In this document: positions 60,045-64,000 of the stretch, in pieces
Numbering within the stretch: the first letter of the stretch is position 1
Layout of the letters: each line of letters begins with the position of its first letter
Virus record (IMG/VR): IMGVR_UViG_3300031134_000001
Span: 128,001 to 192,000 of that record
Direction: 5' to 3' (one strand)
From: a virus
Lineage: Duplodnaviria; Caudoviricetes
DNA: 64,000 nucleotides
Translations under genes and position numbers: made by a program
The notes under the pieces: model-generated
Database searches by the model: none
Told to the model about the DNA's origin: nothing
Seen by the model: the letters and a program-made list of their open reading frames with translations, nothing else

Positions 60045-62042
60045 ATGAGCCACAATGTTACAAGAAACGCCCTGGGTAACGTAACGAGTATTCTTGGCCC
60101 CGACGGTAAACTGTTACGGTTTGCCAACAGTACGCCCACCGACCAAGTGATGGCTGACCAAGCCGTCAAAGACACTGGCGGCTTTCCGCTGTTTGACATC
60201 GGCGAGACACTGAGCTACAAGGGACTCTTCCCGCTGCGCAAGGTCGATAACGGCGCGTCGTCGCGGTATGTGTTGGGCGCAGCCACAATTCCAGCTGTTC
60301 CCAACTCACCGAACATGACCAACCCAGAAAGCTACGGTTGGCAGACGCTGGGTAAGCTCACCATTCCTGGTGGCGCCCTGGTCGGTAAAGGGACGGCAGT
60401 GTGTAGCTTCATTCTGGAATGCTTAGCGCAGTTCGGCACCAACGCTCACTACATCTTTGCGGATATCGAAGTGGCGGGTGACGGCGCGGTGGGTAACTTC
60501 TTTACCCGTCCAGTTGCTAGTGCAACGCGCCTCGATACGTCGTTCACGTTAACCGGCAAAGATTCTTCGACTCTTACCCTGTCAGGCGGCGGCTGGTACT
60601 CCTACACCGGCGGCTTCTCGAAGCGTTGCAACCTGATGAAAGACATCACGATCGTCTTCAAGTTCGCAGCAGCGAGCAACATGGGTCGCGCAGTGTCGTT
60701 TGTCTCAGGTAAGGGCGACCTTAAAGACACAGTCGCTTCGCCACAAGCAGGCGTTGCTTACCGTGATCCAATCCAACAGCCGTTTAAAGCCAGCGCGTTC
60801 TGGAACGTTCCGCTGGGTGATGGCGCGATCTTCCAACAAGCGACCGATCCAGAAACCGCATGTATTCTGACAGGTAACCCAGGCGGTGTGGCCAACGGCG
60901 CGTTTGCCTGGATCAGCGGTAAAGATGGCGGCGGTAATAACTTCATCCAGCTCAAGTCGGATGACCCCATCAGTAACTTCGCTTACGGTTCGCGCGCTTA
61001 CGGTGGTCCATGGCCATTTGCGCACACGGACACAGGCGGCGCCTCCGGTACGTTCCGTATGCGGGCGCCAGCGCAGGAATTCATCACAGCGCAGTCCAGT
61101 GACCGGGTCATCACCCTCATCACGCCAGACAAGCGCTACATGCTGGAATCGGGCGAGTACAGCTACAACGCCACCACCAACACGCACCGGCTCGGTTACT
61201 GCACGATCTGGGATTTGTACGGCACGGGTCTGTCGAACAACATCACCACCAACCAACCACTCATGAGTGAAGGTTACCGCGCCAGTGGTCACCCGCTGTG
61301 TGGCGGTATTATCCGTGTCTCGGACATGGAAAAGGGCAGCATCGATCACGTGATTGCCATGCAGCTCTCCCAGTGGCAACAACGCGCTGGTGTGTTCTCG
61401 GTGGTAAGTGCTGTCGTGGGTGGTACGGCTGTTTCTGTCAAACCACTGGACGCGCAGCAAAAGACCCAGAGCTACGCTTCGCTGCTCAAGGCCGGTAAAG
61501 TGATCGGTTACGCTGGTGCTAACTATACGCTGGCTACTGATGCCACGTACGATGCAACCAACAACACCACCAACTTCACCGTCACCACAGCAATTACCGG
61601 CAGTTCGGGAACGCTGTACTTGGGTGGTGCTAACAAGAACAACCAGCAAGCCAATCAGTTAGTCTGGCCTGCCACGTACGTCGACAACTATAGCCTGGAC
61701 CATGGCCAGTGGGGTTGCTATCGTGGTCTGGTGCCATTAGGCGCGATGTTTGGCATTCCACCTAACGTGGACGTCACGACGCTGGGCTTGACGCCTGAAG
61801 GCTTGATGTTGGCCCGTGCTTTCCAAAAGTACGGCGGTGTGAATAACGACACCACCAACAACACGTTCTCGATCTGCTTCCTGGAAACAGGCATGAGCGC
61901 TACCCAGAAAGACAATCTGAACAAGGACCGTATCTTACTGCGTAACCAACTGCGCATGATCACGAACATCAGTGCAGCCAATCCGGGCGGGCCAGGTAAT
62001 CGCCTGATCACACCGCCGCAAGATCTGTACCCGTTCTATTGA
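60045..62042 (+). CDS. tailspike/fibre-like protein with a bacterial secreted-type C-terminal domain (665 aa)
   Basis: PF..SAFWN.PL, RASG.PL.GG.IR..D...G.I.H, P.G....IPP..D...LGLT..G...ARA.QKYG. Confidence 0.6.
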   Translation: MSHNVTRNALGNVTSILGPDGKLLRFANSTPTDQVMADQAVKDTGGFPLFDIGETLSYKGLFPLRKVDNGASSRYVLGAATIPAVPNSPNMTNPESYGWQTLGKLTIPGGALVGKGTAVCSFILECLAQFGTNAHYIFADIEVAGDGAVGNFFTRPVASATRLDTSFTLTGKDSSTLTLSGGGWYSYTGGFSKRCNLMKDITIVFKFAAASNMGRAVSFVSGKGDLKDTVASPQAGVAYRDPIQQPFKASAFWNVPLGDGAIFQQATDPETACILTGNPGGVANGAFAWISGKDGGGNNFIQLKSDDPISNFAYGSRAYGGPWPFAHTDTGGASGTFRMRAPAQEFITAQSSDRVITLITPDKRYMLESGEYSYNATTNTHRLGYCTIWDLYGTGLSNNITTNQPLMSEGYRASGHPLCGGIIRVSDMEKGSIDHVIAMQLSQWQQRAGVFSVVSAVVGGTAVSVKPLDAQQKTQSYASLLKAGKVIGYAGANYTLATDATYDATNNTTNFTVTTAITGSSGTLYLGGANKNNQQANQLVWPATYVDNYSLDHGQWGCYRGLVPLGAMFGIPPNVDVTTLGLTPEGLMLARAFQKYGGVNNDTTNNTFSICFLETGMSATQKDNLNKDRILLRNQLRMITNISAANPGGPGNRLITPPQDLYPFY

Positions 62043-62099
62043 TTACAAAAAGCTAATGTTGATCTCCAGTAATAATTTACAGGGGATTAGGATAGTGTG

Positions 62100-62720
62100 C
62101 GAGAAAAGATGTTTTTCGGCGATAAGCCATGGTTAGATCCTTCGATGGATCGCACTGGACTAATGAAAGCGCTTTGAAAACTGTCTGCTCTGGGAGATCT
62201 TTGATAATTTAGATAAATCTGTTGGTAGGTGTGATAGAACCACACGAGACAACCAACTAGGAGGAGCAGTAACCTTCTGAAAAACCTTCAATGGTTAGTC
62301 GGCCTGCACTTAGCGACGATCGCTATTTGCCTGCATAGGTCGGTTAACAAGTTGTGCTCTTTACATCGGACGTATGGGCCGATGAAGATGGGTTAGTAGG
62401 CTCGCCTGCACTTCGGTGTGGCCGCCCAACGCCCTAGAGCACCGATATTCGTGATGCGTCCCTCAGGGCAGGTGTTATACTCCGGCCACCGACGCGTATT
62501 GGTACCTTTGAATAGCAATGTGCAACAGCCGAATCGGAACGTTTGCATGTTGCCCAGGTCCCACGAATGCTCGTGCACAGCCGGAAGGTGATTGGGTTGA
62601 TCTTCCCCCAGCCCAGTCATGCTTTTGGATGTGTACCGCCAATTCACATCAAATCGATCAAGTGTTGTGTTATGTATCCTGGAGTATTCAGTCAAACGTT
62701 GCTCCAGGCATGCATGTAGT
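62100..62720 (+). ncRNA. putative structured non-coding region
   Basis: No credible + strand ORF. Multiple stems, e.g. 62294-305/62337-348, 62221-226/62252-257 and 62678-684/62702-708. Confidence 0.4.
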
Positions 62721-62729
62721 ACAAGTTTC

Positions 62730-62815
62730 GGGCGGATAGGCAAGCGGTCAAAGCCAGCTGACTGTAAATCAGCCCCCTCTGTGGTTCGTAGGTTCAAATC
62801 CTTCTCCGCCCACCA
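62730..62815 (+). tRNA. tRNA-Tyr (GUA)
   Basis: GGGCGGA/TCCGCCC acceptor, anticodon GTA at 62764-66, long variable arm, encoded CCA. Confidence 0.95.
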
Positions 62816-62820
62816 AGTTA

Positions 62821-62934
62821 GGAAACGCATGAGCGACCTCTAGAAGGGGCGCAGTGAATCAAACCCTGAGAAGGGTAGCCGAGCGGAAAGTAACATCTAG
62901 GCGATGGTAAGGTGAAATCTGCTCATGTGTTTCC
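62821..62934 (+). ncRNA. 114-nt multi-hairpin RNA closed by a 14-bp stem
   Basis: ggaaacgcatgagc/gctcatgtgtttcc; internal accct-gaga-agggt GNRA hairpin. Confidence 0.55.
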
Positions 62935-62953
62935 CTCTGTTTCAAGTTTCACC

Positions 62954-63083
62954 GGGTATGTAGCTCAGTTGGTAGAGCAAGGCTCTTCGTGGGAATGCGC
63001 ACCCCCACACCGGCTTAATAGCCGGCGCCGAAAGGCAGCGACCAAAGCCTAGGTCCTGGGTTCGAGTCCCGGCATATCCACCA
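62954..63083 (+). ncRNA. tRNA-like RNA with Ala identity and a 61-nt structured anticodon loop
   Basis: Canonical acceptor, D and T arms and CCA; G3.U70 and A73; stem AGGCT/AGCCT encloses three hairpins. Confidence 0.8.
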
Positions 63084-63265
63084 AACACAGTAGTAAGAAA
63101 GAGCACAAACCCAACTTACGGCTTCACCACATTCGATGTGGATCTCTCGTAACATCCTCCCGTGCCGAGTCGGCTCTTGAAGTCGGCGGGATATGAGGTG
63201 CCCGACGCGTTCGGAGTGTTGGAACTCCCCTTGCCTGAAAAGGCGTTTAGTAGCAAAGTTTCAAT

Positions 63266-63414
63266 GGCTAAGATGGTGAAGTGGAAGACACAGCTATTCA
63301 CTCCTAGGTTCAGTGAGTAGTATTTGAAAGACAACTCTGTGCGATTTAGGGGAAACCTTATTGGTCAAACTGCTTGTCTAGTAGAACGGGGGTTCGATTC
63401 CTCCTCTTCAGCCT
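63266..63414 (+). ncRNA. degenerate tRNA-like RNA with large internal insert
   Basis: GGCTAAGA/TCTT(C)AGCC, D-like GGTGAAGTGGAAGACAC, T arm GGGGG-TTCGATT-CCTCC; no CCA. Confidence 0.45.
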
Positions 63415-63435
63415 ACTGTTTCAATGTAGTTAGCA

Positions 63436-63556
63436 GGGCATGTAGCTCAGTGGTAGAGCACCGTCTAGTGTGGTTCAACTCCACACCGTTCCACACCTGG
63501 GGCGGCACTGGTTAAATTGACGGAGGTCTTGGGTTCAATTCCTGACATGTCCACCA
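63436..63556 (+). ncRNA. tRNA-like RNA with Ala identity and a 53-nt structured anticodon loop
   Basis: GGGCATG/CATGTCC (G3.U70), A73, CCA; stem CCGTC/GACGG encloses two hairpins. Confidence 0.8.
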
Positions 63557-63590
63557 GAATTCATCGTAGTACAAACAACAGGAGAAGATC

Positions 63591-63746
63591 ATGAAACGCA
63601 TGAGTAAGCCATACCCAGAATCGTCGACCCGTCAAGCTGAACGCGGCCTGCGTCAAGGTCTGCACAGCATCCAAGTCCCGGTCGCTGGCAAGCACAACAC
63701 GATCCTCCAGACCAAACCATCGAGCGCACGCGTCTCGATGAACTAA
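63591..63746 (+). CDS. small basic protein (51 aa) inside the tRNA cluster
   Basis: SD aggag with AAC leader. MKRMSKPYPESSTRQAERGLRQG... Confidence 0.55.
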   Translation: MKRMSKPYPESSTRQAERGLRQGLHSIQVPVAGKHNTILQTKPSSARVSMN

Positions 63747-63751
63747 ACGCG

Positions 63752-63844
63752 GGAAGCGTGGCCGAGCCGGTTTAAGGCACTGGTTTGCTAAACCAGCGTA
63801 GGGAGCAATCCCTACCGTGAGTTCGAATCTCACCGCTTCCGCCA
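63752..63844 (+). tRNA. tRNA-Ser (GCU)
   Basis: GGAAGCG/CGCTTCC, anticodon GCT at 63787-89, long variable arm, G73, CCA. Confidence 0.95.
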
Positions 63845-63866
63845 ATTCACATTTTCAAAGGTTGTC

Positions 63867-64000
63867 ATGTTCACTTTCCTCTATTGGCTCTGCGTCATGG
63901 TTGTGGTTGCCTACTTCGTCATCCAATGGCCGAAGTCGGTGAACAAGATCAAATGCATCGCTGGTTTCATCGCAGCGTTCCTGCCGCTCGTGAACTTCGT
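63867..64000 (+). CDS. membrane protein, truncated by the window edge
   Basis: SD aaagg. MFTFLYWLCVMVVVAYFVIQW... Confidence 0.5.
   Translation, partial: MFTFLYWLCVMVVVAYFVIQWPKSVNKIKCIAGFIAAFLPLVNF

What the first reader, a model, noticed from the sequence alone, without database searches (positions are those of the whole stretch)
62954..63083. Anticodon-less, alanine-identity tRNA-like RNA with a three-hairpin domain (copy 1)
Seen: perfect acceptor (GGGTATG/CATATCC, G3.U70), A73-CCA, D arm, AGGTC variable loop and T arm. The anticodon stem AGGCT/AGCCT encloses 61 nt forming gtggg/cccac, ccggct-taat-agccgg and gcc-GAAA-ggc hairpins. Established: AlaRS reads G3.U70 and A73 and ignores the anticodon, which is how tmRNA is charged. 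The insert is far too short for a group I intron and has no tag ORF. Inference: a chargeable but non-decoding RNA, for example a ribosome-rescue or stalling device, an Ala donor for non-ribosomal transfer, a decoy for anticodon nucleases or uncharged-tRNA sensing, or a tRNA with a new intron type.
Basis: partly seen in the sequence, partly recalled or inferred. Interest (0 to 1): 0.88.

Follow-up and report, generated by a model that had tools for sequence, protein, structure and literature searches.

The report
Alanine tRNA shell with swappable cargo
A giant phage's tRNA gene cluster holds a gene that matches an alanine tRNA in every part except the anticodon loop, which is replaced by a 61-base folded module that close relatives have swapped for a different one, so it is probably a tRNA-shaped carrier RNA and not a decoder, a kind of phage RNA that has barely been described.

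Summary
Window 62954-63083 scores as a tRNA (Rfam RF00005, 55 bits). It has an intact acceptor stem, D arm, variable loop and T arm, plus G3:U70, A73 and an encoded CCA. A 61-nt domain of three stable hairpins sits where the 7-nt anticodon loop should be.

G3:U70 with A73 is nearly specific to alanine tRNAs: 27 of 32 Ala versus 4 of 901 non-Ala phage tRNAs. The phage has no tmRNA, SmpB, Ro, RtcB, Rnl2-type ligase, splicing endonuclease or AlaRS. It does encode a CCA-adding-type enzyme.

In metagenome contigs of close relatives the tRNA body is kept, but the whole anticodon arm and insert (71 nt) is replaced by 112 other letters.

A paralog (copy 2) carries a circularly permuted, tmRNA-TLD/YrlA-like inner tRNA domain. 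That domain is conserved with compensatory changes in Xanthomonas phage RTH11. Five unrelated IMG/VR contigs hold further Ala-identity tRNA-like genes with non-anticodon inserts.

Best reading: a non-decoding, probably alanylated tRNA scaffold carrying an exchangeable module whose target is unknown. An unusual intron or a disrupted gene is not excluded.

This scan noted "tRNA-shaped inserts" in phage tRNAs before on other DNA, and Lak-megaphage "enigmatic introns" are the published precedent.

The parts
62954..62960 (+). Acceptor stem, 5' strand (G1 G2 G3 ...)
   Evidence: Pairs 7/7 with 63073-63079, with G3 opposite T70
62963..62978 (+). D arm (4-bp stem, 8-nt loop containing GG)
   Evidence: RF00005 alignment
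62980..62984 (+). Anticodon-stem 5' strand (AGGCT); doubles as the closing helix of the inserted four-way junction
   Evidence: Perfect 5-bp complement of 63046-63050. The alignments to relatives' contigs break exactly here.
62985..63045 (+). 61-nt cargo domain in place of the 7-nt anticodon loop
   Evidence: No Rfam family at E<=1. No significant similarity to other cargos.
62989..63008 (+). Hairpin H1 (5 bp, 10-nt loop); occupies the T-arm position of a permuted cloverleaf
   Evidence: Pair probability 0.94-0.95
63010..63025 (+). Hairpin H2 (6 bp, UAAU loop); occupies the position of a capped acceptor stem
   Evidence: Pair probability 0.86-1.0
63027..63036 (+). Hairpin H3 (3 bp, GAAA tetraloop); occupies the D-arm position
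   Evidence: Pair probability 0.97-0.98
63037..63045 (+). Single-stranded tail AGCGACCAA ahead of the 3' strand of the anticodon stem
   Evidence: ACCA-containing tails stand at the same place in FLC9, FLC4-3B, FLC1-1B and RP12.
63046..63050 (+). Anticodon-stem 3' strand (AGCCT)
63051..63072 (+). Variable loop AGGTC and T arm (canonical TTCGAGT loop)
   Evidence: RF00005 alignment. Unchanged in the relatives' contigs.
63073..63083 (+). Acceptor 3' strand with U70, discriminator A73 and encoded CCA
   Evidence: Identity statistics.
63436..63556 (+). Paralog (copy 2): the same Ala-type body, with a cargo that is a circularly permuted tRNA/TLD-like domain. It consists of an inner T arm (63469-63485), an inner acceptor (63486-63492 paired with 63499-63505, which also has G3:U70 and A73) and a D-loop-like strand (63506-63518).
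   Evidence: Homolog in phage RTH11 with compensatory changes. Weak tmRNA_permuted match of 20.2 bits.
62730..62815 (+). tRNA-Tyr(GTA), the first gene of the array. It is preceded by a GTAGTA motif at 62716, the only such motif upstream of copy 1.

Best explanation
Copy 1 is a genuine gene for a non-decoding, tRNA-shaped carrier RNA derived from an alanine tRNA.

The body (acceptor stem, D arm, T arm, encoded CCA) is kept intact. The transcript is therefore made with the tRNA array and trimmed like a tRNA: RNase P at the 5' end, exonucleases or the phage's own CCA-adding-type enzyme at the 3' end. It would fold into the usual elbow.

Because G3:U70 and A73 are present and AlaRS ignores the anticodon, the host AlaRS most likely alanylates it.

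The anticodon loop is replaced by an exchangeable structured module. Together with the anticodon stem this module forms a four-way junction with the helix order of a circularly permuted cloverleaf (T-like, capped acceptor-like, D-like hairpins), here in degenerate form. With no anticodon loop at the right distance from the CCA end it cannot read codons.

The module is probably the working part and the tRNA body the handle that gives processing, stability and tRNA-like partners. The likeliest use is as bait or decoy for a host or phage factor that binds tRNA-like RNA, in a contest that favours cassette replacement.

Shown: anatomy, identity set, array context, cassette replacement in close relatives, sister elements in related phages, and absence of known splicing or rescue partners.
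Inferred: expression, processing, charging, and any target of the module.
For: - Full-length tRNA model match with a 58-nt loop insertion, and stable hairpins.
- Ala identity: G3:U70 with A73 in 27/32 Ala versus 4/901 non-Ala phage tRNAs.
- The gene lies co-oriented among 7 canonical tRNAs, and the phage has no canonical tRNA-Ala or tRNA-Gly.
- In contigs of close relatives from two other studies the body is retained (62946-62979 and 63051 onward; no listed change in 63051-63083). The arm 62980-63050 is replaced by 112 other letters. The inner part of a third tRNA-like gene (63325-63382) is likewise replaced by 67 letters.
- Copy 2 shares the body but carries a different cargo. That cargo is conserved in Xanthomonas phage RTH11 with compensatory changes in 4 of 5 pairs of the shared stem, 1 pair of the inner T stem and 2 pairs of the inner acceptor.
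- The inner domain of a second RTH11 element matches the tRNA-like module of YrlA at 44 bits.
- Insert-bearing tRNA-like genes, mostly unannotated, occur in FLC9, FLC4-3B, FLC1-1B, RP12/RP31, RTH11, LucasX and XacN1.
- FLC4-3B and FLC1-1B are 93% identical, yet the would-be anticodon region changes in sequence and length while acceptor pair 7:66 covaries. These genes are therefore kept but do not decode.
- Five unrelated IMG/VR contigs hold Ala-identity (G3:U70, A73, CCA) tRNA-like genes of 105-125 nt with 50-66-nt non-anticodon domains. All pass the tRNA gathering score, and two sit beside canonical tRNA-Ala genes.
- The phage encodes a CCA-adding-type nucleotidyltransferase.
Against: - There is no RNA evidence at all: none of the runs listed as holding the region is on record as RNA.
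- Copy 1's cargo has no homolog, so its fold rests on a single sequence and on thermodynamics. The anticodon stem has low predicted pair probability.
- Sister elements in other phages lack G3:U70 and some have irregular acceptor stems, so alanylation may be an inherited by-product rather than the function.
- Rapid replacement of the cargo also fits a selfish insertion or a gene in decay.
- The flanks of the insert can be joined into a perfect 7-nt loop, CUUCCAA.
- No target of the module was identified. A 14-nt antisense match inside a phage ORF is at chance level.
Confidence: 0.5

Rival explanations
1. It is an interrupted tRNA gene with a new, protein-dependent intron. The 54-nt insert would be cut out, for example by tRNA-end-processing enzymes acting on a tRNA-like insert, or by an unknown nuclease, and the halves ligated. 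The product would be a 76-nt tRNA with loop CUUCCAA (anticodon UCC).
For: - ARAGORN in intron mode calls tRNA(UCC) with a 54-nt intron, and the rebuilt loop has U33 and A37.
- UCC fits the A/U-ending codon bias of the phage's other tRNAs. The relative RTH11 carries a canonical tRNA-Gly(UCC) next to its nested elements.
- Published precedent: Lak megaphage tRNAs with 'enigmatic' introns, one of which may itself encode a tRNA (PMC6784885).
- Earlier notes of this scan describe tRNA-shaped inserts in phage tRNA anticodon loops.
Against: - The body has Ala identity (G3:U70, A73, G2:C71), not the bacterial Gly set (U73, C2:G71, G3:C70; my own knowledge). The product would insert Ala at Gly codons.
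- The insert is not a 5'-to-3' minihelix ending at a splice site. Its ends do not pair, and its helix order is the permuted, closed one, so RNase P or Z cuts would not release it.
- Copy 2 and the FLC/RP12/RTH11 elements give no sensible anticodon loop.
- In close relatives the anticodon stem itself is replaced along with the insert.
- The phage has no RtcB, Rnl2-type ligase or splicing endonuclease. No group I or other ribozyme model matches.
Confidence: 0.12
2. It is a dead or dying tRNA-Ala-type gene whose anticodon arm was destroyed by insertion or recombination. The hairpins would be incidental and the RNA would have no function.
For: - The cargo is an orphan sequence and differs between close relatives.
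- The array shows indels and rearrangements: the 114-nt element is absent in one relative, and gene order differs in another.
- Conservation of the 33-nt 3' half is not statistically distinguishable from the ~5% divergence of the flanks.
Against: - All body elements, G3:U70 and the encoded CCA are intact in both copies, which differ by a compensatory change at pair 4:69.
- The same architecture is kept in several distantly related phages (30-40% protein identity), with covariation.
- Ala-type insert-bearing genes recur in unrelated contigs beside intact tRNA-Ala genes.
- Jumbo-phage tRNA arrays are compact, and the three hairpins are unusually stable.
Confidence: 0.2
3. The function lies in the alanylated acceptor end rather than in the cargo. 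The RNA would be an Ala donor for a non-ribosomal transferase, or a sponge for AlaRS, EF-Tu or a toxin that attacks tRNA 3' ends. The bulky arm would simply keep it off the ribosome.
For: - The Ala identity set is present in both copies and in the inner acceptor of copy 2.
- Ala-type scaffolds recur in other phages next to normal tRNA-Ala genes.
- A third cargo-bearing gene in the array uses a long-variable-arm body, a class whose synthetases also ignore the anticodon (first-reader note e1-5335919).
Against: - Homologous elements in RTH11, FLC9, FLC4-3B and RP12 lack G3:U70, and some have mismatched acceptor stems.
- No aminoacyl-transferase or AlaRS gene was found (AlaRS; transferases were not searched).
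- This reading does not explain why the cargo is structured and replaced by another structured cassette.
Confidence: 0.1
4. It is a minimal tmRNA-like ribosome-rescue RNA. Alanylated, it would enter stalled ribosomes and use the short frame ending in the tandem stops UAA UAG in the loop of hairpin H2.
For: - Ala identity, as in tmRNA.
- A 7-codon frame ends in UAAUAG at 63016-63021.
- Copy 2's insert and its RTH11 homolog give weak matches to the tmRNA and permuted-tmRNA models (20-22 bits).
Against: - ARAGORN finds no tmRNA.
- The Rfam scores are far below the gathering score of 47, and they concern copy 2, not copy 1.
- The full D arm and anticodon stem occupy the place SmpB takes in a TLD (my own knowledge).
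- The phage has no SmpB.
- 61 nt is too short to reach the decoding centre the way H2 and PK1 do. The frame lies in stems and its end is unlike known tags. A tandem stop in 61 nt has a chance probability of roughly 0.1.
Confidence: 0.04

Closest known systems
'Enigmatic' introns in tRNA genes of Lak megaphages (Devoto et al. 2019, PMC6784885)
   Same: Phage tRNA genes of a huge phage carry inserts of tens of bases in the anticodon loop. One insert may itself fold as a tRNA. Presence differs between related phages. No known intron class fits, and the mechanism is unknown.
   Different: The Lak host tRNAs have a recognisable anticodon of their own, and the intron is identical across cohorts. Here the rebuilt anticodon contradicts the body's Ala identity, the arm is replaced wholesale in relatives, and the inner fold is permuted and closed, not a 5'-to-3' tRNA.
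YrlA, bacterial Y RNA with a tRNA-like module (Rfam RF02553; Chen et al. 2014, PMC4201824)
   Same: T arm, capped acceptor-like hairpin and D arm appear in circularly permuted order, joined to the rest of the RNA through the anticodon-stem position. The inner domain of RTH11's nested element matches this module at 44 bits. Copy 1's cargo has the same helix order.
   Different: There is no Ro-binding stem; a complete tRNA takes its place. The phage has no Ro/TROVE gene. Copy 1 itself gives no YrlA match at E<=1, and its loops lack T-loop and D-loop signatures.
tmRNA tRNA-like domain, including two-piece (permuted) tmRNA
   Same: An alanine-identity acceptor (G3:U70, A73, CCA) sits on an RNA that does not decode with an anticodon. 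Copy 2's inner domain has the permuted order, a UUCAACU T loop and a GG-containing D-loop analogue.
   Different: Copy 1 has a full D arm and anticodon stem, no pseudoknots, no credible tag frame, no SmpB partner and no model match.
Phage T4 stable RNAs rnaC and rnaD (species 1 and 2) in the tRNA gene cluster
   Same: Small stable RNAs of unknown function are encoded inside a phage tRNA array. rnaC ends in a T arm plus acceptor-like 3' strand.
   Different: T4 rnaC is only partly tRNA-like (17.5 bits to a tRNA-Sec model), and neither has a full tRNA body with Ala identity. No sequence relation was found.
Engineered 'tRNA scaffold' for recombinant RNA expression (Ponchon and Dardel 2007; my own knowledge)
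   Same: A structured RNA is inserted in place of the anticodon loop of a tRNA so that the chimera is processed and stabilised like a tRNA.
   Different: It is a laboratory device. It serves here only as a functional analogy for what the natural chimera may achieve.

Membership tests
tRNA (Rfam RF00005) | Cloverleaf with acceptor, D, anticodon and T arms scoring above the gathering threshold | tested here: met
   55.1 bits against a gathering score of 29, model positions 1-71
tRNA (functional decoder) | 7-nt anticodon loop with U33 and a purine at position 37 on a 5-bp stem | tested here: not met
   The loop is 61 nt. A 7-nt loop appears only if 54 nt are removed.
Alanine tRNA identity | G3:U70 wobble pair, A73 and a CCA end | tested here: met
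   Read directly from the sequence. The combination occurs in 27/32 Ala and 4/901 non-Ala phage tRNAs.
Alanine tRNA identity | Actual aminoacylation by AlaRS | not testable with these tools
   Needs an in vitro charging assay or an acid-gel Northern blot
Alanine tRNA identity | Alanine anticodon (NGC) | tested here: not met
   No way of joining the loop flanks gives NGC. The options are UCC, ACC or UCG.
tmRNA (RF00023 / permuted RF04321) | TLD without a D stem, pseudoknots, tag reading frame with resume codon; detection by ARAGORN or Rfam | tested here: not met
   ARAGORN -m finds none. The only overlap with copy 1 is a 16.9-bit match (E 0.63) that starts at its T arm.
tmRNA | SmpB partner | tested here: not met
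   PF01668 is absent from the 271-kb genome, and the controls responded. A host SmpB cannot be assessed.
YrlA / Y RNA | Permuted tRNA-like module (T arm, capped acceptor, D arm) | tested here: inconclusive
   The helix order fits, but the loops are not T- or D-like and there is no RF02553 match at E<=1 for copy 1. The RTH11 sister element matches at 44 bits against a gathering score of 69.
YrlA / Y RNA | Ro-binding stem and a neighbouring Ro60 (TROVE) gene | tested here: not met
   The stem is replaced by a tRNA body, and PF05731 is absent.
Group I intron in a tRNA anticodon loop | Catalytic core of about 200 nt or more, matching the Rfam intron models | tested here: not met
   The insert is 54-61 nt and no intron or ribozyme family matches at E<=1.
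Archaeal/eukaryal-type tRNA intron | Bulge-helix-bulge motif at the splice sites, plus a splicing endonuclease and a ligase | tested here: not met
   Only a 3-bp UCG/CGA helix with unequal bulges can be drawn. PF01974, RtcB and Rnl2 are absent. The Rnl1 search had silent controls.
'tRNA-shaped intron' of phage tRNAs (Lak-type; earlier notes of this scan) | The insert runs from an inner acceptor 5' strand to an inner 3' strand plus NCCA at the splice sites, and the host tRNA keeps an anticodon matching its identity | tested here: not met
   The insert ends do not pair. The helix order is permuted and closed. The rebuilt anticodon (UCC) conflicts with Ala identity.

The most novel reading that the evidence does not exclude
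Phages, especially jumbo phages with tRNA arrays, encode an undescribed class of 'cargo tRNAs'. These are complete tRNA bodies, often of anticodon-independent identity such as alanine and therefore still chargeable. Their anticodon arm is a swappable cassette that can be a second, circularly permuted tRNA/TLD-like domain or another structured module. Cassettes would be exchanged between close relatives because the module acts in phage-host conflict, as bait, decoy or tether for tRNA-binding factors.
Probability: 0.3. Interest if true: 0.85.

Novelty: new variant of a known kind. Interest (0 to 1): 0.6.

Why it matters
If real, this RNA shows that phages reuse the tRNA fold as a natural expression and stability scaffold for other RNA modules, a trick known so far from tmRNA, Y RNAs and the laboratory.

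It would also show that an alanine identity set can be kept on an RNA that never reads a codon.

It gives a concrete, testable entry to two old puzzles: the function of stable non-tRNA RNAs in phage tRNA clusters (T4 rnaC and rnaD), and the 'enigmatic introns' of megaphage tRNAs.

It also flags a gap in annotation. Such genes are unannotated in several GenBank jumbo-phage records because default tRNA finders skip them.

Tried and rejected
- **Homologs of the copy 1 insert.** blastn against 50,697 phage records found only generic tRNA 5' halves. Exact-pattern scans of IMG/VR and JGI metagenomes for the copy 2 core found nothing. Local alignment against 13 other cargos gave z<2.3.
- **Relatives through the neighbouring 665-aa protein.** None were found. 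A 64%-identical relative contig holds no tRNAs.
- **The 112-nt allele.** It could not be retrieved. Read laying shows at most 40 intervening letters, and look-ups by protein identity need unaltered sequences.
- **RNA evidence.** No RNA run was listed.
- **GGGATATG at 63188-63195 as an alternative 5' acceptor strand.** I considered a permuted-tmRNA layout (weak hit). It is rejected because relatives carry T>C at 63192 while the partner strand is unchanged.
- **sRNA-type target.** The 14-nt antisense match at genome 106346 lies inside an ORF and is at chance level.
- **Shared 'CAGCRACC' tail motif with L150 and L155 cargos.** Not significant for copy 1.
- **Sigma-70 promoters and intrinsic terminators.** None in 61900-64000.
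- **Homing endonuclease in the array.** No such ORF was evident by eye. The Pfam call failed on a coordinate slip and was not repeated.
- **MAFFT alignment of copy 2 with RTH11.** It misaligned the stems, so pairs were tabulated by hand-segmentation in a script and no covariance model was built.
- **Literature searches.** Six searches found no description of nested or cargo-bearing tRNA-like RNAs beyond Devoto 2019.

Full report
**What is there**

Window 62954-63083 (+ strand) is a tRNA-like gene.
- a 7-bp acceptor stem with G3 opposite U70
- A73 and an encoded CCA
- a normal D arm
- a perfect 5-bp anticodon stem (62980-62984 with 63046-63050)
- an AGGTC variable loop
- a canonical T arm

Rfam's tRNA model aligns end to end at 55.1 bits (gathering score 29), with 58 nt inserted in the anticodon loop. 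Default ARAGORN skips the gene.

The 61 nt between the stem strands form three hairpins: H1 (62989-63008), H2 (63010-63025) and H3 (63027-63036, GAAA loop). Their pair probabilities are 0.86-1.0. The complete cloverleaf-plus-hairpins structure lies 1.9 kcal/mol above the MFE. The insert alone folds better than shuffles, with z -2.2.

**Identity**

G3:U70 together with A73 occurs in 27 of 32 tRNA-Ala but in only 4 of 901 other tRNAs, so the body is alanine-type with high confidence.

It is established knowledge (Hou and Schimmel 1988; McClain and Foss 1988; minihelix work of Francklyn and Schimmel; cited from my own knowledge) that AlaRS needs G3:U70 and not the anticodon.

The genome is a 271-kb IMG/VR record with terminal repeats. 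It holds seven canonical tRNAs (Tyr, Ser, Gln, Asn, His, Thr, Leu), no canonical tRNA-Ala or tRNA-Gly, and no tmRNA.

Joining the loop flanks can only produce the anticodons UCC, ACC or UCG. ARAGORN's intron mode picks UCC with a 54-nt intron. A UCC anticodon on a body with A73, G2:C71 and G3:U70 would not be a glycine tRNA by the bacterial rules (my own knowledge).

**What it is not**

- No Rfam family other than tRNA matches the region at E<=1. There is no group I intron, no self-cleaving ribozyme, no riboswitch and no YrlA.
- The genome lacks SmpB, RtcB, Ro/TROVE, AlaRS, an Rnl2-type ligase and a tRNA-splicing endonuclease, with responding controls. The Rnl1 search is uninformative because its controls were silent.
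- The genome does encode a CCA-adding-type nucleotidyltransferase.
- The short frame ending in the tandem stops UAA UAG in the H2 loop is noted. It lies in stems, and it is too short and too close to the body to work like a tmRNA tag frame.

**Context**

The phage is phiKZ-like. A virion protein of the window finds 288 jumbo-phage records, nearest Burkholderia phage FLC9 (40% identity) and Xanthomonas phages LucasX and RTH11 (about 37%).

The array starts at tRNA-Tyr (62730) behind a GTAGTA motif, which recurs before other units here and in FLC9. No sigma-70 promoter or intrinsic terminator is predicted.

Copy 1 follows tRNA-Tyr and a 114-nt structured spacer, so it is probably co-transcribed and cut out like its neighbours (inference).

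**Close relatives**

DNA runs from phyllosphere, straw and marine metagenomes hold near-identical contigs.

- One straw contig (run X3, record 9, 2,452 nt) and a marine one (X8) align to the copy 1 body up to 62979 and again from 63051, with no listed change in 63051-63083. Between those points, 112 other letters stand in place of the 71 nt that make up the anticodon stem and insert.
- The same contig replaces the inner part of a third tRNA-like gene (63325-63382) by 67 letters.
- It lacks the 114-nt spacer.
- It leaves copy 2 unchanged.
- In X8 the order of units differs.

The body is therefore conserved while the arm is an exchangeable cassette. The break points coincide with the stem boundaries, so the relatives do not simply carry another intron in the same anticodon arm. 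I could not read the 112 letters.

**The paralog and sister elements**

Copy 2 (63436-63556) has almost the same body as copy 1. It differs by a compensatory change at pair 4:69 and keeps G3:U70, A73 and CCA.

Its insert reads, in order:
1. a T arm with loop UUCAACU
2. a 7-bp hairpin that is an acceptor stem closed by five bases, again with G3:U70 and followed by A73
3. a GG-containing single strand resembling the D-loop analogue of tmRNA

This is a circularly permuted tRNA/TLD-like domain sharing its 'anticodon' stem with the outer tRNA.

Xanthomonas phage RTH11 has a clear homolog. Between the two, four of the five pairs of the shared stem, one pair of the inner T stem and two pairs of the inner acceptor change on both sides, while the inner T loop and D-like strand stay almost identical.

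A second RTH11 element is a complete tRNA inside a tRNA. Its inner domain matches the tRNA-like module of YrlA (model positions 18-91) at 44 bits.

FLC9 has two such nested elements and one with a long hairpin cargo. FLC4-3B, FLC1-1B and RP12/RP31 have the hairpin type, with an ACCA-containing tail before the 3' strand of the stem. LucasX and XacN1 have further variants. Most are unannotated in GenBank.

FLC4-3B and FLC1-1B are 93% identical overall. Even so, the would-be anticodon region differs in sequence and length while acceptor pair 7:66 covaries. These genes are maintained but do not decode.

None of these relatives has G3:U70. phiKZ, PhiPA3, 201phi2-1, Psa21 and Xoo-sp14 show no tRNA-model match longer than about 90 nt.

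Seen against this family, copy 1's three hairpins plus the anticodon stem make a four-way junction with the same helix order (T-like, capped acceptor-like, D-like), but without T-loop or D-loop signatures. I read it as a degenerate member. This reading is an inference from topology and from a weak shared 10-mer with copy 2 (z 1.8).

**Recurrence of the alanine type**

A pattern scan of IMG/VR for tRNA bodies ending in UCC-A-CCA with a long gap between the D and T arms gave eight genes. Five of them have G3:U70, A73 and CCA on a 7-bp stem and carry 50-66-nt non-anticodon domains:
- L148 c8350-8474
- L150 c5434-5557
- L153 c4654-4761
- L154 7520-7628
- L155 5276-5396

All five pass the tRNA gathering score (34-46 bits). 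In L148 and L150 they sit in arrays that also contain normal tRNA-Ala(UGC) genes. L148's array also holds a GOLLD RNA.

Their cargos are unrelated to copy 1's, though some are related to each other.

The pattern fixed U70, so this shows recurrence, not enrichment. In the loci that were not selected for U70, 2 of 9 insert-bearing genes have G3:U70, which is suggestive only.

**Literature and earlier notes**

Six full-text searches found no description of such chimeras.

The nearest published observation is Devoto et al. 2019. Lak megaphage tRNAs carry 'enigmatic' introns, one of which may itself encode a tRNA, with presence/absence variation (PMC6784885). I reached that paper through earlier notes of this scan describing 'tRNA-shaped introns' in phage tRNA anticodon loops on other DNA.

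The present case differs in three ways:
- The inner fold is permuted and closed.
- The rebuilt anticodon contradicts the body's identity.
- The whole arm is swapped in relatives.

YrlA (PMC4201824), tmRNA and the T4 stable RNAs rnaC and rnaD are the other comparators.

**Mechanism and odds**

- **Carrier RNA (0.5).** Most likely copy 1 is a non-decoding carrier RNA. The tRNA-Ala body secures tRNA-type processing, a CCA end, stability and probably alanylation. The cassette in the anticodon arm is the effector, plausibly a bait or decoy for a factor that binds tRNA-like RNA, which would explain cassette turnover. Only the anatomy, identity set, context, turnover and family resemblance are shown. 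Expression, processing, charging and target are inferred.
- **Disrupted gene in decay (0.2).**
- **New protein-dependent intron yielding a UCC tRNA (0.12).**
- **Function residing in the alanylated end (0.1).**
- **Mini-tmRNA (0.04).**

**Limits**

- There are no RNA data.
- Copy 1's cargo is a single sequence without covariation support.
- The 112-nt allele is unread.
- The family comparisons rest on a handful of phages and on hand-segmented alignments, not on a covariance model.

Noticed in passing
window 63436-63556: Copy 2's insert is a circularly permuted tRNA/tmRNA-TLD-like domain. Its inner acceptor (63486-63492 paired with 63499-63505) also has G3:U70 followed by A73. If the 5-nt cap were cut, the RNA would become a two-piece molecule with two alanine-type acceptor ends. 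A homolog with compensatory changes is in Xanthomonas phage RTH11 (L142:2701-2838).
   Followed up: partly
window 63266-63414: A third tRNA-like gene on a long-variable-arm body has no CCA. Its inner part, 63325-63382, is replaced by 67 other letters in a close relative, the same cassette behaviour as copy 1.
   Followed up: partly
window 62821-62934: The 114-nt structured spacer between tRNA-Tyr and copy 1 is absent from the relatives' contigs. In X3, 45 letters replace 175. In X8, tRNA-Tyr is joined directly to 63089. The array is modular, with indels and reordering.
   Followed up: partly
window 62716, 63090, 63317, 63566; also 62939, 63258, 63418: A GTAGTA motif, and a GTTTCAA motif, recur shortly upstream of units in the array. 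GTAGTA also precedes nearly every tRNA in Burkholderia phage FLC9 (L016). It may be a phage-RNAP promoter or a processing signal.
   Followed up: no
window 63188-63195: GGGATATG is the exact complement of copy 1's 3' acceptor strand. In relatives it reads GGGACATG, the complement of copy 2's 3' acceptor strand. It could be a remnant 5' half of another scaffold, or chance.
   Followed up: partly
L142:2850-2999 (Xanthomonas phage RTH11, OQ790161.1): A complete tRNA nested in the anticodon arm of another tRNA, with two D arms, two T arms and two acceptor stems. The inner domain matches the tRNA-like module of Rfam YrlA at 44 bits.
   Followed up: partly
L016:4110-4590 (FLC9); L143 c506-617 (FLC4-3B); L145 (FLC1-1B); L141/L146 (RP12/RP31); L017:3859-3978 (LucasX); L161 (XacN1): Insert-bearing tRNA-like genes in GenBank jumbo-phage records lie where no feature is annotated. 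Default tRNA finders miss them.
   Followed up: partly
L150 c5275-5391 and c5434-5557; L155 5276-5396: The cargos of three insert-bearing tRNA-like genes from unrelated IMG/VR contigs share a motif around GCGCACAGCA following a hairpin (pairwise z 4.3-6.0). This is a separate cargo family.
   Followed up: no
G000:C1:212628-212978 (outside the window): A 415-aa ORF matches the PolyA_pol/CCA-adding nucleotidyltransferase family. It could complete or repair the 3' ends of the phage's tRNAs and tRNA-like RNAs.
   Followed up: no
GAAAC ... GUC) can be seen in the sequence. It gets no Rfam hammerhead match at E<=0.1.
   Followed up: no
L148 c6758-7201 (IMG/VR contig of 360 kb): A GOLLD RNA (187 bits) lies in the same tRNA array as an Ala-identity insert-bearing tRNA-like gene. 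The window's own array is headed by a ~660-nt non-coding stretch (62061-62720) with no Rfam match.
   Followed up: no
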